The notes: a model not told the origin generated them from the sequence alone. A stretch of 64,000 bases of DNA from Candidatus Multivoradales bacterium (GCA_965224065.1 CBDCYF010000005.1:2175616-2239615); one strand, 5' to 3'. Counted from the first letter of the stretch, positions 1,840 through 58,790 are shown. Made by a program: numbers and translations.

Positions 1840-1950
1840 GACGGCTGGCAGGGTCGCCAGCCGCTTCAGCCAGGTACCCGCATGTCGTGCCCCTGAAGCG
1901 GCCGGCGCCCCTGCCGGCCGTTAGGTCCGGCGCCTCTGCCGGCCGTTCAG
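1840..1950. repeat. cluster of GC-rich REP-like hairpin modules (GCTGGC..GCCAGCCGCTTCAG; CTGAAGCGGCCGGC..GCCGGCC)
   Basis: Intergenic between the YcaQ-like and DUF5916 genes. The same GAAGCGGC-stem-loop modules recur in six other intergenic sites in the window. Confidence 0.45.
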
Positions 1951-1998
1951 CCCGCGCTCTGCCACCCCGTCCGAGTTGAGTATGCTCTCGGTCGCGTC

Positions 1999-25780: not shown

Positions 25781-25783
25781 TGC

Positions 25784-25940
25784 GGCGGGCCGGGGCAAGC
25801 CCGGCCCCTACAAAATTGAAGCGGCCGCCGCCTCTGGCGGCCGGCGGGCCGGGGCAAGCCCGGCCCCTACAAGATCGAAGCGGCTTGCACGCGGGACTGA
25901 AGCGGCCGGACCTGTGCCGGCCGTTTGGGCCGGCGCCCAG
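25784..25940. repeat. REP/BIME-like cluster: 2 x GGGCCGGGGCAAGCCCGGCCCCTACAA hairpin + GAAGCGGCCGCCGCCTCTGGCGGCCG hairpin
   Basis: Intergenic between convergent abgT-like and TrxR-like genes. 8-bp GC stem with GCAAG loop. Confidence 0.5.
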
Positions 25941-26977: not shown

Positions 26978-28717
26978 ATGAACGCTTTCGATACCGACGC
27001 CGTCTCGCCGGACGGGGACTCGCGGCGCCGGTCGGGACTCCTGCTCGGCGTCGTGGGCTTCTTGGGAACCCTCCTCGCCCCGGCGATCGCTCGGGTCCCG
27101 GAAGCTCGCCTGGGCTGGATCGGCATGGCGCTGCTCGTGGCGGCAGCCGCAGTGGCGATCCGCGGCTTCGCAAAGAAGACGCCTGCGGCCACCGCCGCGG
27201 CCGCCCTGCTCGCCTGCCTGGCTCTGGTGAGCTTCGCCGCGCCCTACACCGCCGGCATGTCCCAGGCGGCCCGAGCCACGCTGGCCTCTACCGTCCTGAT
27301 GGCCGCCTGGTGGGTGACGCTGGCGGTCCCGATCGCCGCAACTTCACTGCTTCCGCTGGTTCTCTTTCCGGTTCTGGGCGTCGGCACCAGCTCCGAGACC
27401 GCGGCCGCCTACGCCAACAACAACATCTTCCTGTTCCTCGGCGGCTTCATCCTCGCCCTGGGGATCCAGCGCTGGGGCCTCCACCGGCGCATCGCTCTCC
27501 AGATCGTGCGCCTGATCGGCTCCAACCCGTCGCGGATGGTACTGGGCTTCATGGTGGCCACCGCTTTTCTGTCGATGTGGATCTCCAACACCGCGACGGC
27601 GCTGATGATGCTCCCCATCGCGCTCGCGGTGATCTCCTCGATGCGCGAGGTCGGTGGAGGCCAGCGGCTGGGTGGCTTCGCTCCGGCGCTGCTGTTGGGA
27701 GTGGCCTATTCGGCCTCGCTCGGCGGGCTCGCGACCCCCATCGGCACGCCGCCCAACATCTCCTTTCTGAGAATCCTCGAGATCCTCTACCCCGAGGCGC
27801 CGCCGATCTCCTTCGGCCGCTGGCTGGTATCGTTTCTGCCCCTGGTGGTGATCTTCCTCCCGCTGGCCTGGCTCGTTCTCACCCGCGTAGCCCACCGTCC
27901 GTTGCGCCGCTCGATCGCCGCCGGCGCGCAGGTCATCCGCGCCGAGCTCGACCGGCTCGGACCCCTGGCGGGCGCCGAGCGGCGAATGCTGTGGATCTTC
28001 GCCGCTACCGCGGTGCTGTGGACGACACGCGGCGATCTGGACCTCGGCCGGCTGCATGTTCCCGGTTGGGCGGGGCTCGTCGAGCGCTGGCTCGGCAGCC
28101 CGTTTGCCGCCTCCAACCTCCACGACTCAACCGTCGCCGTCGCCATGGCCGTGCTCACCTTCATCCTCGCCGGCGACCCCGACGAGGCCGGCCGCCGCCG
28201 CGCGTTGATGGACTGGGAGACCGCCAAGAAACTCCCCTGGGGGATCCTGCTGCTCTTTGGCGGCGGCTTTGCGCTCGCCGGAGCGTTCAAGACCTCGGGG
28301 CTGTCTCGCTTTCTCGGCGACAGCTTTGCCGGCCAGGTCTCAGGGCTCCCTCCTTTGTTGCTGGTCGCCTCTTCCTGCTTCCTCCTGACCTTTATGACCG
28401 AGGTCACCTCCAACACCGCCACCACCGAAGTGATGCTCCCGGTCCTCGCCGGCACTGCCGCCGGTTTGGGTGTTCATCCGTTGCTGTTGATGATCCCGGC
28501 GACCTTGTCGGCGAGCTGCGCCTTCATGCTGCCGATCGCAACACCCCCCAACGCCATCGTCTTTGGCTCAGGCGAGCTCGAAATGCGTCAGATGGTGCGC
28601 GCCGGGGTTCTTCTCAACTTGCTCGGGATCCTGTTGATCTCCCTTTTCTTCTACTTTGCCGGCTCGGCACTCCTGGGTGTCGACCTCGGCACCGTCCCGG
28701 CCTGGGCCACCGATTGA
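26978..28717 (+). CDS. DASS/SLC13-family anion (di/tricarboxylate or sulfate) transporter
   Basis: 579 aa polytopic. Duplicated hairpin motifs SNTATALMMLPIA and TSNTATTEVMLPV are typical of SLC13/DASS carriers. Confidence 0.75.
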   Translation: MNAFDTDAVSPDGDSRRRSGLLLGVVGFLGTLLAPAIARVPEARLGWIGMALLVAAAAVAIRGFAKKTPAATAAAALLACLALVSFAAPYTAGMSQAARATLASTVLMAAWWVTLAVPIAATSLLPLVLFPVLGVGTSSETAAAYANNNIFLFLGGFILALGIQRWGLHRRIALQIVRLIGSNPSRMVLGFMVATAFLSMWISNTATALMMLPIALAVISSMREVGGGQRLGGFAPALLLGVAYSASLGGLATPIGTPPNISFLRILEILYPEAPPISFGRWLVSFLPLVVIFLPLAWLVLTRVAHRPLRRSIAAGAQVIRAELDRLGPLAGAERRMLWIFAATAVLWTTRGDLDLGRLHVPGWAGLVERWLGSPFAASNLHDSTVAVAMAVLTFILAGDPDEAGRRRALMDWETAKKLPWGILLLFGGGFALAGAFKTSGLSRFLGDSFAGQVSGLPPLLLVASSCFLLTFMTEVTSNTATTEVMLPVLAGTAAGLGVHPLLLMIPATLSASCAFMLPIATPPNAIVFGSGELEMRQMVRAGVLLNLLGILLISLFFYFAGSALLGVDLGTVPAWATD

Positions 28718-28721
28718 AACG

Positions 28722-29045
28722 GCGCGGCTTCTGCCGACCGCCGGGCGGGGGCAAGCCCCGCCCCTACAAGAAATGACCTCTGAAGCGGCCGCCGCCTCTG
28801 GCGGCCGTCGGGCCGGGGCAAGCCCGGCCCCTACAGGAAGGGGTGCCGCCAAGGGTGCGCCCGTCGGAATCGAAGATGTAGGGGCGGGGCTTGCCCCCGC
28901 CCGACAATGCACCCAACCCGACGTCTACCCGTTGGCCGAACGCAGGGCCGGATCCGCCGGCGTTCCCGCCAGGCGGATATGATGCCCGAAGCGGCCGCCG
29001 CCTCTGGCGGCCGTCCGGCCGACGCCTCCGCCGGCCGAACCGCCA
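28722..29045. repeat. REP/BIME-like cluster (3 GCAAG/CTTGC-loop hairpins + 2 GAAGCGGCCGCC..GGCGGCCG hairpins)
   Basis: Same modules as at 25.8 kb, 39.4 kb, 40.4 kb and 58.4 kb. Forms the left boundary of the DUF1566 island. Confidence 0.5.
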
Positions 29046-29056
29046 GAGGAACCGCT

Positions 29057-29366: not shown

Positions 29367-29999
29367 TCACTGGCCGCCGCGAACCGGCCAGACGACGTTG
29401 CCGTTGGTCTTGCCGCCGCGCCCGACGTGGCCGACGTTGAGGAATACCTCCCAGGCGAGGGTGTGGTTGTCGGTGGCGGTCGTCGACGTCCAATAACGGA
29501 ACAGCCACGTCACGCCGTAGAAGCTGCTCGGGCCGTTCACCCAGCAATCACTGCCGCTGTCATTCGTAATCGTCGGTGGCGATGCGGTGCAGTCCGGGTC
29601 GCCCACAAAACCCAGAGCGTCGGAGACCATCCTCTGCCACTCGGCGGCCGTCGGCAGTCGCCACTCGCCGGGAGAGGATTTGTCACCCAAGCCACAGTCC
29701 TGGTCGGCCAACGGGCTGCCAAGGCGCTGGGGGGGAAGATCCGACAAGTTGGCGACGATCTCCGTCGCCTCGTGCCATTCCATCGGGCCGTAGCAGTCCG
29801 CGTTCTTGAGCCACACCAGCCCGGTGCGGTTGTCCGTCACCGTTCCGTTACCGCAGTCGACGTAAATGTCGCCACTGTTGTCCGGGCAGGCCGGGTCGGC
29901 GGTCTGCAACGCCACCATCCCGTCGCCCCCGAGCACCGGCGCGGCGCCCGGCCACAACAGCATGAATCCTGATACCAACGCTCCTGCCCATTTCATCAT
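29367..29999 (-). CDS. secreted DUF1566 (Lcl C-terminal-like) domain protein, paralog 1
   Basis: Signal peptide, then DCGNGTVTDNRTGLVWLKNA...GEWRLPTAAEWQRM...YWTSTT...AWEVF...VVWPVRGGQ, matching the DUF1566 pattern. Confidence 0.65.
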   Translation of the reverse strand: MMKWAGALVSGFMLLWPGAAPVLGGDGMVALQTADPACPDNSGDIYVDCGNGTVTDNRTGLVWLKNADCYGPMEWHEATEIVANLSDLPPQRLGSPLADQDCGLGDKSSPGEWRLPTAAEWQRMVSDALGFVGDPDCTASPPTITNDSGSDCWVNGPSSFYGVTWLFRYWTSTTATDNHTLAWEVFLNVGHVGRGGKTNGNVVWPVRGGQ

Positions 30000-30209
30000 C
30001 GACGGTCCTCCGGTTGTTGGCTCCCCCTAACCTCTACAACGCAAACGGGGAGCCGTTTGGATCAAACGAAGGGTCGGGGGGCGCCAGGCCGGAGAGATGA
30101 ACAGGCGGCAACCCAGGTATATTCTTGCTCCAGCCAGTTACTCATGACGCAGACCCGTGCAACCGCAAACACGCGCCGGCGCACGGGGCCTCGGCAAGGA
30201 GGTCCTTCG

Positions 30210-30803
30210 ATGCAGCAATCCACTACCGCAGCGGCCATTCTCTTCGCGCTACTGTCGTGGCCCCTGGCGGCCGACGACGGCGCCGAAGCCAGCCGGCAGA
30301 CGGCCTTGGACATGATCGAGGCCATCAACGAGCGCGACCTCGATGCACTGGATACCGTCGTCGCGCCGAACATGGTCCGGCACAGCGCCGCCACACCGGG
30401 AGCCACGATCGAGAGCCTCGATCAGTTCAAGGCTTTCTTGACCGAGGACTTCAAGGCGGTACCCGATTCCCAGGTGACGGTAGACACCCTCTTAGCCACC
30501 GAGAACATGGTCGCGATCCGAGCGATCTATGCCGGCACCCAAACCGGACCCATGGGGCCATTTCCACCCAGCGACAAGAAAGTCGAGCTGCCCTTTCTCG
30601 GCATCCTGCGCATCGAAGCCGGAAAGATCGTCGAGATGTGGGTCGAGTGGGACAACCTGTACATGCTGACTCAACTCGGCCACTTTCCGCCGCCTGATGC
30701 GGAGCCGGCCGCGGACAACCGGTGCGAGGCCTGCAAGATGCATGACCGTCAGCACGATGCGGCCTGCGCTCACGGCGGCTCCCACACGCCCGACGGGCCA
30801 TGA
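30210..30803 (+). CDS. secreted SnoaL-like/NTF2-fold protein
   Basis: ATG at 30210 gives MQQSTTAAAILFALLSWPLAADDG signal peptide, then an NTF2/SnoaL-like domain. The ORF-track start (TTG 30057) is probably too far upstream. Confidence 0.5.
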   Translation: MQQSTTAAAILFALLSWPLAADDGAEASRQTALDMIEAINERDLDALDTVVAPNMVRHSAATPGATIESLDQFKAFLTEDFKAVPDSQVTVDTLLATENMVAIRAIYAGTQTGPMGPFPPSDKKVELPFLGILRIEAGKIVEMWVEWDNLYMLTQLGHFPPPDAEPAADNRCEACKMHDRQHDAACAHGGSHTPDGP

Positions 30804-31276
30804 CCCGTTCCGGGCGGGATCGAGCCGCGGTTCGGGTCCCACCACCACTCGTCTTTGTGCTCGTGGTCGCCGCCGGGTTCTTCCTCCACCGATCGCTCCA
30901 GCCCCTACCTCTCGGGCTTCCCGATGGGCTGCGCAAAGCGGCTTCCGCGGTCACACTACTTTCCGGCGCCGGGCTCCTGGCATGGTCGCTGACGCTTTTT
31001 CTCAGGAGCGGTCAAGACCCGGCACCCTGGAAGAGCACTCCCGAAATGATCTTCAAAGGCCCTTTTCGGTTTAGCCGCAACCCCATGTATCTGTCGATGG
31101 CCTTACTCCAGATCGCCGCCGGTCTCTGGTACTCAAACAGCTGGATCCTGGGCTTGCTGCCCTTAGCGCTTTTTTGCGTCTACCGGACGGCCATCCGCCA
31201 CGAGGAAGCGTACTTGGAGTCCAAATTCGGGGACTCGTACCGGGAGTACAAGGCCGAAGTGCGGAGATGGATCTAG
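30800..31276 (+). CDS. isoprenylcysteine carboxyl methyltransferase (ICMT)/phospholipid methyltransferase-family membrane protein
   Basis: 158 aa. ATGA overlap with the upstream gene. Motifs GPFRFSRNPMYLSMAL and HEEAYLESKFGDSYREY are typical of the ICMT/PEMT family. Confidence 0.65.
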   Translation: MTRSGRDRAAVRVPPPLVFVLVVAAGFFLHRSLQPLPLGLPDGLRKAASAVTLLSGAGLLAWSLTLFLRSGQDPAPWKSTPEMIFKGPFRFSRNPMYLSMALLQIAAGLWYSNSWILGLLPLALFCVYRTAIRHEEAYLESKFGDSYREYKAEVRRWI

Positions 31277-31392
31277 GGCCTAGGGCTCTAGGCTCGGATC
31301 GATTTCGGCGGCAAACACGTCTCCCTCGACCGAGAACTCGTTCGTAAGCCGAATTTCCTGTCCAGCGCAAGCCAAAGGCTCCCAAGAGCCAA

Positions 31393-32070
31393 TCATTGTC
31401 CGCCGCGAACCGGCCAGACATAGTAGGTGCTGGCCTTGTTGCTAATGCTGAAGGCGCCGTTGGCGAGGAACACGGCCCAAGCGCTCGTGGGGAAGGGGAC
31501 ATCGGTTCTAGCCGACCAATAGAAGGTCGACACCACGCCGGTAAAACTACAAGTCCGACCCGAAAGAAAACACACGAGAGGATCGGCCCAGCAACCGGTC
31601 CCCTCATCGTCGGTGATCGCAGGACTGCAAGCCAACACGTTTGGCGACATCATCGCCTCCCACTCCCCCACCGATGGCAACCGCCACTCCCCGGGCGACG
31701 AACCGTCCGACAGACTGCAGTCTTGCGCCGCAGCAGCCGACGTCGCCGGCTCGTCTGACAGACCGGCCACGAACTCCATCGCCGTATGCCAGTCCACTTG
31801 GCCCGGCGGGGCACCAACCCCACCGCCGGCAGAACCGATACAGTTCGCGTCCTGCAGCCATACCAGCCCCGTCCAGTTGTCCGTCACCGTGCCGTTGCCG
31901 CAGTCGATGTAGCGGTCGCTGTTCGTCGGGTCCGCACACGACGGGTCCGCGGTCTGTAGTGCGACCACCCCGTCGCCCGCCCAGGCTGCCGAAACGCCCC
32001 ACAACAGACAACAGAGCAGACAAGCCAAAGCAGTGGTACCTCTCGATCTCGTGATGCTGTAGTGCCTCAT
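31393..32070 (-). CDS. secreted DUF1566 domain protein, paralog 2
   Basis: MRHYSITRSRGTTALACLLCCLLWGVSAAWAG signal peptide. DUF1566 motifs. GGAGGG RBS 6 nt upstream of the ATG. Confidence 0.7.
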   Translation of the reverse strand: MRHYSITRSRGTTALACLLCCLLWGVSAAWAGDGVVALQTADPSCADPTNSDRYIDCGNGTVTDNWTGLVWLQDANCIGSAGGGVGAPPGQVDWHTAMEFVAGLSDEPATSAAAAQDCSLSDGSSPGEWRLPSVGEWEAMMSPNVLACSPAITDDEGTGCWADPLVCFLSGRTCSFTGVVSTFYWSARTDVPFPTSAWAVFLANGAFSISNKASTYYVWPVRGGQ

Positions 32071-32136
32071 CTCGAACCCTCCATTAGAAAAGCACCGTGG
32101 CAGCTACCCCGAAGGGCCAAGGCTCCCAAGAGCCAA

Positions 32137-32778
32137 TCATTGTCCGCCGCGAACCGGCCAGACATAGGCGGTGCCGGACTTGCTGCCGGCGACGAGGATG
32201 CCGCCAAGGTTCGCGCCCAACGCGAACGTTGGGTTGAGGACACTGGTACTAGCCGACCAATATAACTCCGACAGCACGCCGGTAAAACTACAAGTCCGAC
32301 CCGAAAGAAAACACACGAGAGGATCGGCCCAGCAACCGGTCCCCTCATCGTCGGTGATCGCCGGATTGCAAGCCAACACGGTTGGCGACATCATCGCCTC
32401 CCACTCCTCCACCGATGGCAACCGCCACTCCCCCGGCGACGATCCGTCCGACAGACCGCAGTCGATCGATGCCACCACCGACGTCGACGGCTTGTCCGAT
32501 AGCCCCGCTACGAACTCCATTGCCGTGCGCCAGTCGTAGGCGCCGTCCAGACAGTTGGCGTTTGCAAGCCATACCAGCCCCGTGGCGTTGTCCGTCACCG
32601 TGCCGTTCCCGCAGTCCACGTACCGATCGCCGCTGTCGTCCGCGCACGACGGGTCCGCCGTCTGTAGTGCGACCACCCCGTCGCCCGCCCAGGCTGCAGA
32701 AACGCCCCACAACAGACAACAGAGCAGACAAGCCAAAGCAGTGGTACCTCTTGATCTCGTGATGCTGTAGTGCCTCAT
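32137..32778 (-). CDS. secreted DUF1566 domain protein, paralog 3
   Basis: N-terminal 47 aa identical to paralog 2. Mosaic middle. Divergent C-terminal 35 aa. Confidence 0.7.
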   Translation of the reverse strand: MRHYSITRSRGTTALACLLCCLLWGVSAAWAGDGVVALQTADPSCADDSGDRYVDCGNGTVTDNATGLVWLANANCLDGAYDWRTAMEFVAGLSDKPSTSVVASIDCGLSDGSSPGEWRLPSVEEWEAMMSPTVLACNPAITDDEGTGCWADPLVCFLSGRTCSFTGVLSELYWSASTSVLNPTFALGANLGGILVAGSKSGTAYVWPVRGGQ

Positions 32779-32826
32779 CGCGAACCCTCCACTAGAAAAG
32801 CACCGTGGCAGCTACGCGCCAACCTC

Positions 32827-32860
32827 TGAAAGAAAAAGCAGGGGGGCTCACGCCCCCTGC
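32827..32860 (-). terminator. rho-independent terminator downstream of DUF1566 paralog 4
   Basis: Minus-strand RNA GCAGGGGGCGUGAGCCCCCCUGC followed by UUUUUCUUUCA: a perfect 9-bp GC stem plus U-run. Confidence 0.5.
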
Positions 32861-32894
32861 ACCCTCCCGAAGAGCCAAAACTCCCAAGAGCCAA

Positions 32895-33563
32895 TCATTG
32901 TCCGCCGCGAACCGGCCAGACATAGTAGTCGGCGGCCTTGGCGCCGCCGCCGACGGTGCCGAAGCTGAGGAACGCGACCCAGGCGGTCGACGGGACGCTG
33001 ACCCTGGTACTAGCCGACCAATAGATGGACGACACCACGCCGGAAAACGAGCAAGCACCCACGGTCACACACGCCACGTCCCAGCAGCCATTGCCGGCGT
33101 CGTTCGTGATCGTAGGGTCACAACCCAAGGCAACCGCATCGGCGACCATCGCCTCCCACTCCTCCACCGATGGCAACCGCCACTCCCCAGGCGACGACCC
33201 GTCCGACAGACCGCAGTCGTGCGCAGCAGCAGACCCCGCCGGCTTGTCCGACAGCCCCGCCACGAACTCCATTGCCGTGCGCCAGTCCACTTCGCCCGGC
33301 GGGGTACCAACTCCACCGCCGGCAGAACCGATACAGTTCGCGTCCTGCAACCACACCAGTCCCGTGGCGTTGTCCGTCACCGTGCCGTTGCCGCAGTCGA
33401 TGTAGCGATCGCTGTTCGTCGGGTCAGCACACGACGGATCCGCCGTCTGTAGTGCGACCACCCCGTCGCCGGCCCAGGCTGCCCCAACGCCCAACGAGAG
33501 ACAACAGAGCAGACAAGCCAAAGCAGCGGTACCTCTCGATCTCGTGATGCTGTAGTGCCTCAT
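32895..33563 (-). CDS. secreted DUF1566 domain protein, paralog 4
   Basis: Near-identical N-terminus to paralogs 2 and 3. Ends WPVRGGQ. Confidence 0.7.
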   Translation of the reverse strand: MRHYSITRSRGTAALACLLCCLSLGVGAAWAGDGVVALQTADPSCADPTNSDRYIDCGNGTVTDNATGLVWLQDANCIGSAGGGVGTPPGEVDWRTAMEFVAGLSDKPAGSAAAHDCGLSDGSSPGEWRLPSVEEWEAMVADAVALGCDPTITNDAGNGCWDVACVTVGACSFSGVVSSIYWSASTRVSVPSTAWVAFLSFGTVGGGAKAADYYVWPVRGGQ

Positions 33564-33690
33564 CTCGAACCCTCCATTAGAAAAGCACCGTGGCAGCTAC
33601 GCCGCGCCGTAGAACGAAACTCAAGAAACGAGTCGTAAAAGCCCTATCACCGGCGAGGCCCCCCGAAGGGCCAAGGCTCCCAAGACCCAA

Positions 33691-34347
33691 TCATTGGCCG
33701 CCGCGAACCGGCCAAATATAGTAATCGGTGATCTTGGTGCTGATGATGCCGACGGTGCCGTCGCCGAGGTCCGCGAACCAGGCGCCCGTGGTGGGGAAGG
33801 TGACGACGACGGTACTAGCCGACCAATAGTGCGACGACACCACGCCGGTAAAACTACAAGTCCGACCCGAAAGAAAACACACGAGAGGATCGGCCCAGCA
33901 ACCGGTCCCCTGATCGTCGGTGATCGCCGGACTGCAAGCCAACACGTTCGCACCCGACATCATCGCCTCCCACTCGGCCAACGACGGCAAACGCCACTCC
34001 CCGGGCGACGAACCGTCCGACAGACCGCAGTCGTGCGCCGCAGCAGCAGATGACGCCGGCTGGTCCGACAGCCCCGCCACGAACTCCATCGCCGTATGCC
34101 AGTCGTAGGCGCCGTCCAGACAGTTGGCGTTTGCAAGCCATACCAGCCCCGTGGCGTTGTCCGTCACCGTGCCGTTCCCGCAGTCCACGTACCGATCGCC
34201 GCTGTCGTCCGCGCACGACGGGTCCGCCGTCTGTAGTGCGACCATCCCGTCGCCCGCCCAGGCTGCCCCAACGCCCCACACCATCAAAGCCGCGGCAAGC
34301 GAGCCACAAACAGTCATTCTCTGCGTCATCCCGGTCTCCTTCCTCAT
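33691..34347 (-). CDS. secreted DUF1566 domain protein, paralog 5
   Basis: Different signal peptide (MRKETGMTQRMTVCGSLAAALMVWGVGAAWAG) but the same domain. The start may be the internal Met. Confidence 0.65.
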   Translation of the reverse strand: MRKETGMTQRMTVCGSLAAALMVWGVGAAWAGDGMVALQTADPSCADDSGDRYVDCGNGTVTDNATGLVWLANANCLDGAYDWHTAMEFVAGLSDQPASSAAAAHDCGLSDGSSPGEWRLPSLAEWEAMMSGANVLACSPAITDDQGTGCWADPLVCFLSGRTCSFTGVVSSHYWSASTVVVTFPTTGAWFADLGDGTVGIISTKITDYYIWPVRGGQ

Positions 34348-34643: not shown

Positions 34644-34719
34644 TGGTAGCGCGTACGGGATTCGAACCCGTGTTACCGGCGTGAGAGGCCGGCGTCCTAG
34701 ACCCCTAGACGAACGCGCC
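34644..34719 (-). tRNA. tRNA-Glu(CUC): tRNA-Glu (anticodon CUC)
   Basis: Reverse complement GGCGCGTTCGTCTAGGGGTCTAGGACGCCGGCCTCTCACGCCGGTAACACGGGTTCGAATCCCGTACGCGCTACCA. Aligns position-by-position with bacterial tRNA-Glu (D-arm TCGTCTAGxGGxxxAGGAC, T-arm GGTTCGAATCC). Anticodon loop CUCUCAC gives CUC. CCA is encoded. Confidence 0.85.
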
Positions 34720-34784: not shown

Positions 34785-34975
34785 CGGCTTCCAAACGGCC
34801 GCCAGAGGCGGCGGCCGCTTCAGAGAGTTGTGCGCGGCGCGGGGCCGCCAGCCGCTTCAGGGAGCCGTGCACGACACAGGACCGCCGGCCGCCAGCCGCT
34901 TTAGGGAGCCGTCGGCCGCCAGAGGCGGCGGCCGCTTCAGAGAGCTGTGCGCGGCGCGGCACCGCCGCCGGCATC
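34785..34975. repeat. REP-like cluster: four alternating GGCCGCCAGAGGCGGCGGCCGCTTCAG / GCCGCCAGCCGCTT modules
   Basis: Between tRNA-Glu and the formamidase gene. Forms the right boundary of the DUF1566 island. Confidence 0.45.
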
Positions 34976-36044
34976 AGGGAACGGCAGGCGCCTCAAAGAT
35001 GCTCTTGGGCAGGTGCATGGCCACCAGCATGTGGGGCACGTCGACGGTCTCGGCGATTTTCAGGTCGCCGGCCAGCGAGCAGAGCATGTAAGCGTCGTTC
35101 CGGCTGAGGCCGCGGGTCTCGACGAGGTAGTCGATCATGTATCGGGTGGCCTTTTTCGCCGCCTCGTCGATGGTGGTGGCAAAGCCGGTGGTGGCGTAGT
35201 AGGTGTCGGTCTCGTACTGGGGCTCTTGGATGGACCGGTCGCCCTCGACCACGCTGACCCGGTAGACGATCCGCATGGGGGTCTCGATGGCGGTGCCGGA
35301 GACTTCACCCAGGCCCTGTGCGCCGTGGGTATCGCCGATCGAGAACAGCGCGCCCTCGACAAAGACCGGGAAGTAGACGGTGGTGCCGGCCACCAGGTGG
35401 GGGTCGTCCATGTTGCCGCCGTTAGCGCGCGGCGGGATGGTGTTCAGCATTTCATCGGTGTCCGGGGCCACGCCCATGACACCGGGAAAGGGCCGAAGCG
35501 GAACGGTGATGCCTTCGGCGTACTCCAGAACGCCTCGCTCTTTGTCGAGTGGAAAGATCTTGAGCACCGACTCCTGGAACTCCTCCGCCAGGAAGCCAAA
35601 GCCCGGGGCGATGGCCATCCAGCCCCAGTCGGCGGTCTCGAGTTCGAGCAACTCGACCGCCAGGACATCGCCCGGCCGGGCGTCTTCGACATAGACCGGT
35701 CCGGTCAGGGTGTGAATCCGGTCCATGTCGAGGGTGGCGAGATCGTCTGGGGTCGAGTCGGGGCCGAACTGGCCGCCGGTGGCCTCGTGGGTGGAGACTT
35801 CGATGACGCTTCCCGAGGGAACACGGATGGCGGGCGGGATCGAGCGGCTGAACTTGTCGTGGGTCTGATCGGCGGTGAGGACGAAATCGGGCTCGGGGAC
35901 CTTCGACTCCGCTGCCGGTTCCGCCGCGGGCGCCGGCTCGGAAGCCGTCGGGGCCTGGGTGCAGGCGCCGAGAAGCACCAGGCAAACGGCCACGGACGCG
36001 CAAACGGCGCCGACGTCGAGACGAGGATTGTTGGACGTCATCAT
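34974..36044 (-). CDS. acetamidase/formamidase (FmdA_AmdA)-family lipoprotein
   Basis: 356 aa. Lipoprotein signal MMTSNNPRLDVGAVCASVAVCLVLLGAC. Strong FmdA/AmdA family pattern (GPVYVEDA, GGNMDD, FSIGDTHGAQG). Confidence 0.75.
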   Translation of the reverse strand: MMTSNNPRLDVGAVCASVAVCLVLLGACTQAPTASEPAPAAEPAAESKVPEPDFVLTADQTHDKFSRSIPPAIRVPSGSVIEVSTHEATGGQFGPDSTPDDLATLDMDRIHTLTGPVYVEDARPGDVLAVELLELETADWGWMAIAPGFGFLAEEFQESVLKIFPLDKERGVLEYAEGITVPLRPFPGVMGVAPDTDEMLNTIPPRANGGNMDDPHLVAGTTVYFPVFVEGALFSIGDTHGAQGLGEVSGTAIETPMRIVYRVSVVEGDRSIQEPQYETDTYYATTGFATTIDEAAKKATRYMIDYLVETRGLSRNDAYMLCSLAGDLKIAETVDVPHMLVAMHLPKSIFEAPAVP

Positions 36045-39401: not shown

Positions 39402-39404
39402 CGG

Positions 39405-39525
39405 CGCGGGCCGGGGCAAGCCCGGCCCCTACACGGTCGAAACGAGTGCGAAGCGGCCGGCGCCTCTGCCGGCCGTTTGGGCCGCCGCCCCTGGCGGCCG
39501 TTCGGACACCGCAACCAGCCGGTGA
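39405..39525. repeat. REP/BIME-like unit (GGGCCGGGGCAAGCCCGGCCCCTACA + CGAAGCGGCCGGCGCCTCTGCCGGCCG modules)
   Basis: Intergenic murI-rph. Confidence 0.5.
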
Positions 39526-40382: not shown

Positions 40383-40650
40383 CGGGCTCACTCGTGTAGG
40401 GGCAGGGCTTGCCCCGGCCCAAACGGCCGCCAGAGGCGGCGGCCGCTTCAGAGACAGTCCAATGTTGAAGCGGCTGGCGACTCTGCCAGCCGGTAAGGCG
40501 GCGGCGGCTTCTTTCTTTAGGTAGGGGCCGGGCTTGCCCCGGCCCAAACGGCCGCCAGAGGCAGCAGCCGCTTCAGAGACAGTCCAATGTCGAAGCGGTT
40601 GGCGACTCTGCCAGCCGGTAAGGCGGCGGCCGCTTCAGATCCTTCGGGCT
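40383..40650. repeat. two tandem ~123-bp composite REP/BIME-like units
   Basis: GTAGGGGC(A/C)GGGCTTGCCCCGGCCC + GGCCGCCAGAGGC(G/A)GC(G/A)GCCGCTTCAG + GAAGCGG(C/T)TGGCGACTCTGCCAGCCGG, repeated twice. Confidence 0.5.
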
Positions 40651-40657
40651 TCCGCCG

Positions 40658-46668: not shown

Positions 46669-46873
46669 ATTCCCGGTGAGAACGTCTGGCTAGCCTGACT
46701 TTCTCACCAACCTCCGGCCCGAAGGCCGGAAATGCCTGAATCTACTGCGTTGCGCTCCCATCGGGCTCCTCGACGTAGCTACGGCTACGCCTGCGTCGCC
46801 CTCGGTCGCAAGCCTTGCATCTCCAGGCATTTGCAGCCTTCTGCCTCGAACGCTGGTGAGAAAGTCAGGCTAG
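46661..46873. mobile_element. MITE-like element, copy 1 (184-bp core 46690..46873 with 19-bp terminal inverted repeats CTAGCCTGACTTTCTCACC / GGTGAGAAAGTCAGGCTAG, plus partial extra end 46661..46689)
   Basis: Perfect 19-bp TIRs. Internal sequence ~85% identical to the inverted copy at 50290..50472. No ORF. Internal long palindromic structure. Confidence 0.7.
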
Positions 46874-50289: not shown

Positions 50290-51938
<1,649 letters not shown>

Positions 51939-58342: not shown

Positions 58343-58369
58343 GGAGAAAACGTAGCACAGGCAGGCGGA

Positions 58370-58790
58370 CGGGCGGGGGCAAGCCCCGCCCCTACATAAA
58401 CCAGTTGTCCGACCCGCAGTCTCTCTCGGTGTAGGGGCGGGGCTTGCCCCCGCCCGAGATCGGTTGAAGCGGCTGGCGACTCTGCCAGCCGGGGTTGAGA
58501 CACAACCATCGAACGGCCGCCAGAGGCGGCGGCCCAACGGCTCTCGGTGTAGGGGCGGGGCTTGCCCCCGCCCGAGATCGGTTGAAGCGGCTGGCGACTC
58601 TGCCAGCCGGGGTTGTGACACAACCATCGAACGGCCGCCAGAGGCGGCGGCCCAACGGCTCTCGGTGTAGGGGCGGGGCTTGCCCCCGCCCGAGATCGGT
58701 TGAAGCGGCTGGCGACTCTGCCAGCCGGGGTTGTGACACAACCATTGAACGGCCGCCAGAGGCGGCGGCCGCTTCAATCCTGAAGCTATC
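58370..58790. repeat. tandem array: 3 x 118-bp composite REP/BIME-like units (period 118; units at 58423, 58541, 58659) preceded by a partial unit
   Basis: Each unit has GTAGGGGCGGGGCTTGCCCCCGCCC + GAAGCGGCTGGCGACTCTGCCAGCCGG + GGTTGTGACACAACC + GGCCGCCAGAGGCGGCGGCC hairpins. Units 98-100% identical. Confidence 0.7.

What the first reader, a model, noticed from the sequence alone, without database searches (positions are those of the whole stretch)
29367..34347. Array of five secreted DUF1566 (Lcl C-terminal-like) paralogs with mosaic segments and a hypervariable C-terminus
Paralog 1 stands apart and paralogs 2-5 are in tandem.

Paralogs 2-4 share identical signal peptides, RBS (GGAGGG) and 3' ends (WPVRGGQ-stop plus ~40 nt). 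Their interiors are mosaic. The block ADPTNSDRYIDCGNG...IGSAGGGVG occurs in paralogs 2 and 4. The block ADDSGDRYVDCGNG...LDGAYDW occurs in paralogs 3 and 5. This points to gene conversion. The last ~35 residues before WPVRGGQ differ completely in every copy.

This is the signature of a diversifying surface or secreted protein family, for example adhesin-like proteins or targets of phage or immune pressure. A clean rho-independent terminator (32827..32860) separates paralog 4 from paralog 3, so at least some copies are independently transcribed.
Basis: seen in the sequence. Interest (0 to 1): 0.65.

Follow-up and report, generated by a model that had tools for sequence, protein, structure and literature searches.

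The report
Retroelement-written variable tails on lectin-like genes
The five small secreted lectin-like genes are real, and their hypervariable tails carry the chemical fingerprint of a diversity-generating retroelement (a reverse-transcriptase system that rewrites a gene segment while randomising adenines), although the retroelement itself is not in this window and probably not in this genome.

Summary
Five minus-strand Lcl_C/DUF1566 genes are present: one apart and four in tandem, with sharply mosaic interiors and a hypervariable C-terminal tail.

The tail is not ordinary fast evolution. It is a diversity-generating-retroelement (DGR) variable region (VR). A template repeat (TR) found in an unrelated metagenome contig (L027: bAvd, TR, reverse transcriptase) matches the tails codon for codon. 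Paralog 4 differs from it at 25/39 template adenines but only 5/102 other bases (p=3e-13). Within AAC template codons, positions 1-2 changed 74/110 times and position 3 changed 5/55 times.

The invariant 3' end is an adenine-free 17-nt block identical to the TR. Paralogs 1, 2, 3 and 5 lack it.

No reverse transcriptase, Avd, MutS-like gene or TR lies in the 64 kb window. No closely related reverse transcriptase appeared on the 3.99 Mb source contig.

Best reading: Legionella-type DGR target genes, now probably orphaned or serviced only occasionally, then shuffled by recombination between paralogs. This is a new member of a known kind, of moderate interest.

The parts
29367..29999 (-). Paralog 1, a 210 aa secreted Lcl_C/DUF1566 protein, set apart from the tandem array
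   Evidence: ORF. Pfam PF07603 at E=6e-18. 51-53% identical to paralogs 2-5.
29373..29516 (-). Paralog 1 VR-like tail (degraded)
   Evidence: Versus TR27, adenine sites changed 21/39 and non-adenine sites 27/102 (p=0.003). AAC codons: positions 1/2 changed 18/28, position 3 changed 1/14. The 3' flank is unrelated to the other copies and has no hairpin.
31393..32070 (-). Paralog 2, 225 aa
   Evidence: Identical to database protein P0001 on a 3,986,945 bp contig.
31399..31539 (-). Paralog 2 variable region (141 nt, same length as TR27)
   Evidence: Adenine sites changed 20/39, non-adenine sites 8/102, p=6e-8. Coordinates.
32137..32778 (-). Paralog 3, 213 aa
32143..32280 (-). Paralog 3 variable region (138 nt, one codon shorter than TR27)
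   Evidence: Adenine sites changed 21/37, non-adenine sites 13/101, p=5e-7.
32895..33563 (-). Paralog 4, 222 aa, the copy with the most complete DGR-target anatomy
   Evidence: AlphaFold model with pLDDT 89; best PDB match is the Legionella Lcl C-terminal domain, followed by C-type lectin-like domains.
32901..33041 (-). Paralog 4 variable region (141 nt)
   Evidence: Adenine sites changed 25/39, non-adenine sites 5/102, p=3e-13 versus TR27.
33691..34347 (-). Paralog 5, 218 aa (212 aa if the second ATG is used, as in database protein P0005)
33697..33846 (-). Paralog 5 variable region (150 nt, three codons longer than TR27)
   Evidence: Adenine sites changed 21/39, non-adenine sites 11/102, p=2.5e-7.
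32902..32918 (-). Adenine-free GC-rich block TGGCCGGTTCGCGGCGG at the 3' end of the variable region (IMH-like). The same block lies at 29374-29390, 31400-31416, 32144-32160 and 33698-33714.
   Evidence: Identical in all five copies and in TR27. Conserved at the DNA level, including rare GTT/GGA/CAA codons, in other genomes.
32861..32894 (-). Conserved 3' flank after the stop codon (TTGGCTCTTGGGAG..TTGGC.CTTCGGG). Equivalent stretches lie at about 31360-31392, 32104-32136 and 33658-33690.
   Evidence: Shared by P2-P5 and by relatives L003, L006, L014 and L084, with a looser version in L021 and L023.
32838..32860 (-). GC hairpin GCAGGGGGC-GTGA-GCCCCCCTGC followed by a T-tract. A candidate DGR target-recognition hairpin that may also act as a terminator.
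   Evidence: Found by the terminator scan. The same GCAGGGGG...CCCCCTGC hairpin lies about 40-50 nt after the stop codon in genuine DGR targets L021 and L023 (two VRs), without a T-tract; L084 shows the same flank running into GGGGGGTGCA at the edge of the stretch read. Absent after P1, P2, P3 and P5.
31930..32107 (-). Shared 5'UTR, GGAGGG RBS and signal-peptide block. Further copies at 32638-32815 and 33423-33600.
   Evidence: Direct-repeat family D3, 94-97% identical. Sliding-window identity. RBS.

Best explanation
The five genes encode small Sec-secreted, disulphide-rich C-type-lectin-fold proteins of the DUF1566/Lcl_C (CLec2) class. This is the class diversified by Legionella-type DGRs, whose cassette order is target, MutS-like gene, avd, TR, reverse transcriptase.

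The last ~140 nt of each gene is a DGR variable region. It was written by reverse transcription of a template repeat almost identical to the one on metagenome contig L027, with template adenines replaced by random bases. The cDNA was then copied into the gene, anchored at the adenine-free block TGGCCGGTTCGCGGCGG.

This randomises about 17 codons, mostly AAC in the template, that form the ligand-binding face, while leaving the scaffold intact.

Shown:
- the adenine-specific, third-base-sparing footprint;
- the match to a real TR;
- shared 3' recognition anatomy with genuine targets;
- absence of the cassette from the window;
- recombination between paralogs.

Inferred: the cassette is no longer resident in this genome, or is only intermittently present (about 0.6). 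The tails would then be largely frozen products of past homing that have since drifted (non-adenine changes; indels in P3 and P5) and been reshuffled by duplication and gene conversion. Paralog 4 alone keeps the downstream GC hairpin and fits the template best, so it is the copy most recently written and the one still competent to be rewritten.
For: - Pfam Lcl_C for all five genes. C-type-lectin-like model with top PDB hit the Lcl C-terminal domain.
- Codon usage. In the tails the four-fold codon families end in C 78 times and in G 18 times, versus 124:257 in the rest of the same genes (p=3e-18). Valine is GTC:GTG 18:1 versus 8:44.
- An idealised Asn-rich template translation retrieved 74 short ORFs. 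The ones whose contexts were fetched are TRs inside bAvd-TR-RVT_1 cassettes, most also with a target gene and a MutS_I gene.
- TR27 versus the window tails: adenine sites changed 20-25 of 37-39, non-adenine sites 5-13 of ~102, p=3e-13 to 5e-7 for P2-P5.
- Within AAC codons, positions 1/2 changed 74/110 and position 3 changed 5/55 (p=4e-13). Outside the tails third positions diverge more than first and second positions.
- The 17-nt adenine-free block is identical to TR27. The 3' flank and GC hairpin are shared with genuine targets.
- Positive control: a real cassette differs between samples only by 8 substitutions at template adenines in one VR, plus a single SNP, over about 8.3 kb, leaving aside the divergent last ~100 nt at the contig ends.
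- Absence of the cassette: no YxDD ORF, no TR-like sixth copy and no AAC-rich stretch in the window. tblastn with RT, Avd and MSL finds nothing.
- No RT on the 3,986,945 bp contig among the 120 best relatives (56-86% identical) of the L027 RT. TR similarity predicts that the cognate RT should rank near the top.
- A related RT-less array is invariant across three samples.
- Literature: DUF1566 = CLec2 targets, MSL accessory gene, remote and tandem targets (PMC5758913). Hairpin requirement (PMC3240598).
Against: - The cognate TR and RT of this genome were never seen. TR27 comes from another sample, so 5-13 non-adenine mismatches remain unexplained in detail.
- The rest of the 3.99 Mb genome could not be read. 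The RT check is indirect: it relies on contig length in a top-120 hit list, so a divergent, unannotated or pseudogenised RT, or one on another replicon, would be missed.
- P3 and P5 tails differ in length from TR27, which a single current template cannot produce.
- The hairpin loops here (GTGA, TGT, TATT) do not fit the GRNA consensus reported for phage DGRs. The hairpin also lies about 40 nt from the VR end, slightly beyond the reported 4-34 bp range.
- No population data exist for this locus itself.
Confidence: 0.6

Rival explanations
1. The genes have the same DGR-target identity, but they are live remote targets. An intact DGR cassette lies elsewhere in the 3.99 Mb genome, at least 29 kb from the array on either side, and still rewrites one or more of these tails in trans.
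For: - Remote targets more than 100 kb from the RT, and up to seven non-adjacent targets, are documented for non-phage DGRs (PMC5758913).
- Scaffold identity of P4 to TR27 is very high (97/102 non-adenine sites), including rare synonymous codons, which suggests recent writing.
- The IMH-like block is intact in all copies and the hairpin is intact in P4.
- The genome holds at least ten paralogs.
Against: - No RT from the 3,986,945 bp contig appears among the 120 closest relatives of the L027 RT. That genome's proteins are in the database, and TR similarity predicts a very close RT.
- No TR-like ORF from that contig was found.
- Length differences in the P3 and P5 tails and private non-adenine changes point away from a shared current template.
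- An RT-less array in a relative is invariant across samples.
Confidence: 0.3
2. No retroelement was ever involved. The tails diverged by ordinary point mutation under diversifying selection on a binding loop, combined with gene conversion between paralogs.
For: - Gene conversion or recombination is clearly active in the interiors.
- No RT or TR is present in the window or next to about 11 related arrays.
- TR adenines coincide with positions where the fold tolerates change, so some enrichment there would arise anyway.
Against: - Ordinary selection does not protect the third base of hypervariable codons. Here positions 1/2 changed 67% of the time and position 3 changed 9%.
- Tail codon usage is inverted relative to the rest of the same genes.
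- The variable columns in 104 homologues are dominated by residues reachable from AAC.
- The scaffold, including rare synonymous codons and non-coding 3' flank, is near-identical to a real TR and to real DGR targets in unrelated samples.
Confidence: 0.04
3. Assembly artefact: the tandem copies and their mosaic are chimeric joins of reads from different strains or paralogs.
For: - Repeats of 90-100% identity over 120-300 nt are hard to assemble.
- Contigs of two relatives (L002, L005) end inside such genes.
Against: - The source is a single 3.99 Mb contig.
- Each copy is an intact ORF with its own unique tail and spacer.
- Similar tandem arrays occur independently in several MAGs and metagenomes.
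Confidence: 0.03

Closest known systems
Legionella pneumophila DGR and its target LdtA (CLec2 / DUF1566 class; 'Architecture D' cassettes with MutS-like (MSL) and avd accessory genes; Wu et al. 2018, PMC5758913)
   Same: - DUF1566/Lcl_C C-type-lectin fold with the variable region at the extreme C-terminus.
- Exported protein.
- Related cassettes found here (L021, L023, L084) have the same order: target, MSL, avd, TR, RT.
- About half of this target class are short DUF1566-only proteins, as here.
   Different: - No cassette lies next to the window genes, and none was detected in the genome.
- The signal peptide is Sec-type with an AWA|GDG site rather than LdtA's lipoprotein signal (inference from sequence only).
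- There are five copies here, plus at least five elsewhere, with inter-paralog recombination.
Treponema denticola DGR (TvpA plus up to seven non-adjacent targets) and the Stenotrophomonas DGR with eight tandem targets
   Same: Many target genes are served by one template, and targets can lie far from the RT or in tandem arrays (PMC5758913).
   Different: - Those targets were assigned because a cognate TR with A-to-N-only differences exists in the same genome. Here that feature is missing.
- The Treponema element uses HRDC rather than MSL, and FGE-sulfatase-type CLec1 targets.
Bordetella phage BPP-1 DGR target site (IMH plus downstream hairpin/cruciform; Guo et al. 2011, PMC3240598)
   Same: - A GC-rich, adenine-free block at the 3' end of the VR, shared with the TR.
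- A GC-rich 8-9 bp hairpin a few tens of nt downstream, conserved in structure among genuine targets of the clade.
   Different: - The loop sequences (GTGA, TGT, TATT) do not fit the GRNA consensus.
- The distance from the VR end is about 40 nt, versus 4-34 bp.
- The function of the hairpin in this clade is untested.
- In the window it is followed by a T-tract and could also terminate transcription.
Legionella Lcl C-terminal domain (PDB 8q4e), the founding structure of Pfam PF07603
   Same: Best structural match of the paralog 4 model, and same Pfam family.
   Different: - Only 16% identity and TM 0.31-0.50.
- Lcl is a collagen-like adhesin that is not DGR-diversified.
- The window proteins carry an extra N-terminal Cys-rich segment (GDGVVALQTADPSC..YVDCGNG).

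Membership tests
Pfam PF07603 Lcl_C / DUF1566 (C-type-lectin-like) | Significant full-length match to the family HMM | tested here: met
   All five genes score 53.9-66 bits against a cut-off of 34.9, covering profile positions 1-117 of 117.
Pfam PF07603 Lcl_C / DUF1566 (C-type-lectin-like) | C-type-lectin-like fold | tested here: met
   AlphaFold model of paralog 4 has pLDDT 89.4, with the tail residues at 97-98. The top Foldseek hit is 8q4e (Lcl C-terminal domain), followed by snake-venom, LOX-1 and intimin/invasin CTLDs. E-values are weak, 3e-3 and above.
DGR variable-protein (target) gene | Variable region at the 3' end of the ORF whose differences from a template repeat lie at template adenines only | tested here: inconclusive
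   Against the closest available, non-cognate TR (L027): P4 25/39 adenine sites versus 5/102 other sites, with P2, P3 and P5 similar. Positions 1/2 versus 3 of AAC codons changed 74/110 versus 5/55. The pattern is met statistically, but not 'adenines only', and not with a template from the same genome.
DGR variable-protein (target) gene | Cognate template repeat present in the same genome | tested here: not met
   No sixth copy or A-rich stretch in the 64 kb window. No TR-like ORF from the 3,986,945 bp contig among 74 TR-like ORFs. The rest of the genome could not be read, so this holds for the window only.
DGR variable-protein (target) gene | DGR-clade reverse transcriptase (with Avd or another accessory gene) in the same genome | tested here: not met
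   No YxDD ORF in the window. tblastn with three RTs, three Avds and two MSLs gives all E>0.2. No hit on the source contig among the top 120 relatives of the L027 RT. This is indirect for the rest of the genome.
DGR variable-protein (target) gene | IMH-like GC-rich block at the 3' end of the VR, shared with the TR | tested here: met
   TGGCCGGTTCGCGGCGG contains no adenine and is identical in all five copies and in TR27. VR and TR diverge immediately after GGCGGA.
DGR variable-protein (target) gene | GC-rich hairpin/cruciform downstream of the VR | tested here: inconclusive
   Present after paralog 4 (32838-32860) and homologous to the hairpins after genuine targets in L021 and L023 (the L084 flank runs into the same motif). 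Absent after paralogs 1, 2, 3 and 5. The loop does not fit the GRNA consensus.
DGR variable-protein (target) gene | VR sequence heterogeneity within or between populations while the flanks stay constant | not testable with these tools
   No second sample of this locus exists: the exact-protein look-ups for the source genome failed. A related RT-less array is invariant in three samples. A genuine cassette shows adenine-site rewriting between samples.

The most novel reading that the evidence does not exclude
Arrays of DGR-written lectin-like genes persist and spread in Thermoanaerobaculia genomes without a resident retroelement. They would act as chromosomal 'landing pads' that are rewritten only when a mobile MSL-avd-TR-RT cassette passes through the lineage. 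Between visits they would diversify by a second tier, namely recombination between paralogs that shuffles N-domains, cores and frozen variable tails. Loss or retention of the downstream GC hairpin would then decide which copies remain rewritable.
Probability: 0.2. Interest if true: 0.65.

Novelty: new member of a known kind. Interest (0 to 1): 0.45.

Why it matters
The finding turns an unexplained "hypervariable C-terminus" into a specific, testable mechanism. It also shows that a DGR footprint can be recognised from target genes alone, using NNC codon bias, an adenine-free 3' block and a conserved 3' flank, even when the RT and TR are tens of kilobases away or absent.

If RT-less arrays like this one are common, standard DGR surveys would miss much DGR-derived diversity, because they start from the RT. 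The homology search returned 763 homologues, and about 11 related arrays had no RT within 10 kb.

The locus also offers a natural experiment on target competence, because one copy has the downstream hairpin and four lack it.

Tried and rejected
- Search for a TR in the window by repeat finding, sensitive blastn of the five 3' ends and an AAC/A-richness scan: nothing.
- Search for an RT by YxDD regex in six frames, and by tblastn with RT, Avd and MSL from related cassettes: nothing.
- Fetching the source genome through exact-protein look-ups of P2 and of three paralogs on the same contig (P0008, P0010, P0019): not on record. The cluster look-up gave no accession.
- Scan of viral contigs for the 17-nt block: five chance hits in unrelated genes.
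- Scan of viral contigs for the L027 RT: none, so there is no evidence that this DGR clade is phage-borne.
- Looking for an RT within 10 kb of related arrays in MAGs and metagenomes (L001-L015): none.
- Metagenome scan with the L027 RT: it returned RT relatives, but none with a flanking target of the window's exact subfamily.
- I considered that enrichment at adenine sites might only reflect coincidence between template adenines and structurally tolerant positions. I rejected this with the within-codon test and the codon-usage inversion.
- I considered a lipoprotein signal as in LdtA. The sequence around the cysteines does not fit a lipobox, and an AXA site (AWA|GDG) is present. This was not tested with a predictor.


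Full report
**What is there.** Five ORFs on the minus strand all match Pfam PF07603 (Lcl_C/DUF1566) end to end, at E 6e-18 to 2.7e-14. Their coordinates are 29367-29999, 31393-32070, 32137-32778, 32895-33563 and 33691-34347. Paralog 1 is separated from the others by two plus-strand genes (SnoaL-like and PEMT-like). Paralogs 2-5 are in tandem with spacers of 66-127 nt. Each protein has a basic and hydrophobic N-terminus ending AWA|GDG, which I read as a Sec signal peptide (inference). Each also has several invariant cysteines. An AlphaFold model of paralog 4 is confident (pLDDT 89.4, with 97-98 over the tail). Its best solved match is the Legionella Lcl C-terminal domain, followed by classical C-type-lectin-like domains.

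It is essentially right. A sliding-window comparison shows a sharp mosaic:
- The 5'UTR, GGAGGG RBS and signal peptide are 95-100% identical in P2, P3 and P4, but 40-57% in P5.
- The next ~150 nt are 100% identical between P3 and P5 and 90-93% between P2 and P4, with cross pairs at 32-82%.
- The core is 95-100% identical among P2, P3 and P5, and 52-75% to P4.
- The tail is 56-80% in every pair.

This pattern requires recombination or gene conversion. Small corrections: the P4 signal peptide differs at four residues, and the tail keeps about 13 scaffold residues.

**The tail is a DGR variable region.** Three independent lines support this.

1. Codon usage. In the tails the four-fold codon families end in C 78 times and in G 18 times. 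In the rest of the same genes the ratio is 124:257 (Fisher p=3e-18), and in 25 other genes of the window it is 3423:3018. Valine is GTC:GTG 18:1 in the tails and 8:44 elsewhere in the genes. In 104 homologues the variable columns are dominated by residues reachable from an AAC codon by changing its two adenines, and Asn is among the commonest at many of them.

2. A matching template.
   - I queried the 5.8-billion-protein collection with an idealised template translation carrying N at every variable column. It returned 74 short ORFs, 70-93% identical to the query.
   - The contexts I fetched are canonical DGR cassettes with the order Lcl_C target(s), MutS_I-domain protein, bAvd, TR, RVT_1. One contig holds only bAvd, TR and RT. 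In the two cassettes compared, TR and VR differ almost only at template adenines.
   - The TR on L027 (GC 67%, like the window) matches the window tails codon for codon.
   - Adenine sites versus other sites changed: P4 25/39 versus 5/102 (p=3e-13); P2 20/39 versus 8/102; P3 21/37 versus 13/101; P5 21/39 versus 11/102; P1 21/39 versus 27/102.
   - Template adenines might simply coincide with tolerant positions, so I tested within AAC codons. Positions 1/2 changed 74/110 times and position 3 changed 5/55 times (p=4e-13). Outside the tails third positions diverge more (0.248 per site) than first and second positions (0.151). Selection on amino acids would not spare the third base.

3. Target-site anatomy.
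   - The variable stretch ends in a 17-nt adenine-free block, TGGCCGGTTCGCGGCGG. It is identical in all five copies and in TR27, and VR and TR diverge right after it.
   - This block and about 30 nt of non-coding flank are conserved at the DNA level in other genomes whose proteins are only about 46-62% identical. The conservation includes rare GTT, GGA and CAA codons.
- Genuine targets in L021 and L023 (two VRs) carry a GCAGGGGG..CCCCCTGC hairpin about 40-50 nt after the stop codon, without a T-tract, and the L084 flank runs into the same motif.
   - A GC-rich hairpin downstream of the VR is required for homing in phage BPP-1 and is conserved in other DGRs (PMC3240598). Here the loop sequence and the distance deviate somewhat from that description.

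**Where is the retroelement?** It is not in this window.
- There is no sixth TR-like copy, no A-rich stretch and no YxDD ORF, and no tblastn match to RT, Avd or MSL from related cassettes.
- The window comes from a 3,986,945 bp contig that carries at least five further paralogs. I could not read that genome.
- As an indirect test I searched the L027 RT against the protein collection, which does contain this genome's proteins. None of the 120 best hits (56-86% identical) lies on a contig of that length.
- Calibration within the clade: other TRs match TR27 at 72-79% of non-adenine sites when their RTs are 64-74% identical. Paralog 4 matches at 95%, so its cognate RT should have ranked near the top.
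- None of about 11 related arrays in MAGs and metagenomes has an RT within 10 kb.

**Is it active?** Two natural comparisons bear on this.
- In a genuine cassette sampled three times (L023-L025), about 8.3 kb are identical except for one SNP and a cluster of eight substitutions. All eight lie at template adenines in the 3' part of one VR, which is fresh homing. I left aside the last ~100 nt, where the contigs diverge completely at their ends.
- In an RT-less array sampled three times (L011-L013), the three Lcl_C genes are identical while 12-24 SNPs lie elsewhere.

In the window, P3 and P5 have tails of a different length from the template. Every copy carries private non-adenine changes, with the fewest in P4. 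I therefore rate a currently resident, active DGR at about 0.3, and orphaned or only intermittently serviced targets at about 0.6. Paralog 4 is the most recently written copy and the only one with complete target anatomy.

**Comparison with what is known.** DUF1566 targets are the 'CLec2' class exemplified by Legionella LdtA. MSL plus avd cassettes are 'Architecture D'. Tandem targets (eight in Stenotrophomonas) and remote targets (seven in Treponema, some more than 100 kb away) are documented (PMC5758913; PMC4159848). The window array is therefore a new member of a known kind. Two features are less usual: the apparent absence of the cassette from the genome, and the superimposed recombination between targets.

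**Verdict.** The mechanism is DGR mutagenic retrohoming (confidence about 0.9 for origin), with current activity uncertain. Interest is moderate.

Noticed in passing
window 34644-34719 (-): A tRNA-Glu(CTC) gene lies directly upstream of paralog 5. The array region (31-34 kb) has 62-63% GC, against 65-70% in most of the window. This could indicate an island inserted next to a tRNA gene.
   Followed up: partly
window 1888-1957, 25783-25885, 28703-29055, 34796-34980, 39404-39512, 40396-40654, 58367-58409: A family of REP-like GC-rich palindromic repeats (GAAGCGGCCGCCGCCTCTGGCGGCCG... and GGGCCGGGGCAAGCCCGGCCCCTAC). Clusters sit on both sides of the paralog region, at 28.7-29.05 kb and 34.8-35.0 kb. 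A related array (L011) has a Y1 (REP-associated-type) transposase gene nearby.
   Followed up: no
window 58423-58776: Three head-to-tail copies of a 118-nt unit, 93-99% identical, between an F0F1-ATPase gene-1-like ORF and a HAD hydrolase gene. Nature unknown.
   Followed up: no
window 46725-46837 and 50325-50437: 113-nt inverted repeats (90% complementary) bracket a 3.5 kb segment holding TetR, DUF3592, a hypothetical gene and the ATP-synthase epsilon gene. Each arm is itself flanked by shorter inverted repeats (46675-46716/46847-46888 and 50291-50345/50417-50471).
   Followed up: partly
L024:1269-1288 versus L023 and L025 (same locus in different JGI samples): Direct evidence of recent mutagenic homing in a related cassette. 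There are eight substitutions, all at template adenines, confined to the 3' part of VR1. This fits 3'-anchored cDNA integration with a variable 5' boundary.
   Followed up: yes
L011:10001-11176 (protein P0004, 391 aa): A fused protein with two complete Lcl_C domains, each with its own variable-type tail. The internal tail ends ...YVWPVRGSAAVAGSG and runs straight into the next domain, so an internal VR-like segment has no stop codon or 3' flank.
   Followed up: no
L002 and L005 (MAG contigs): Both contigs end inside an Lcl_C paralog. This suggests that these repeated or variable genes break short-read assemblies, so copy numbers in MAGs are probably underestimated.
   Followed up: no
L007-L010 (Nostoc/Calothrix): Distant cyanobacterial homologues (38% identical) have a conserved, non-variable tail (...AWAIFLNFGGVVNTSKPSLVYGWPVR) and show no adenine-site enrichment against TR27 (p=0.09-0.34). 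They serve as a useful negative control for the footprint.
   Followed up: partly
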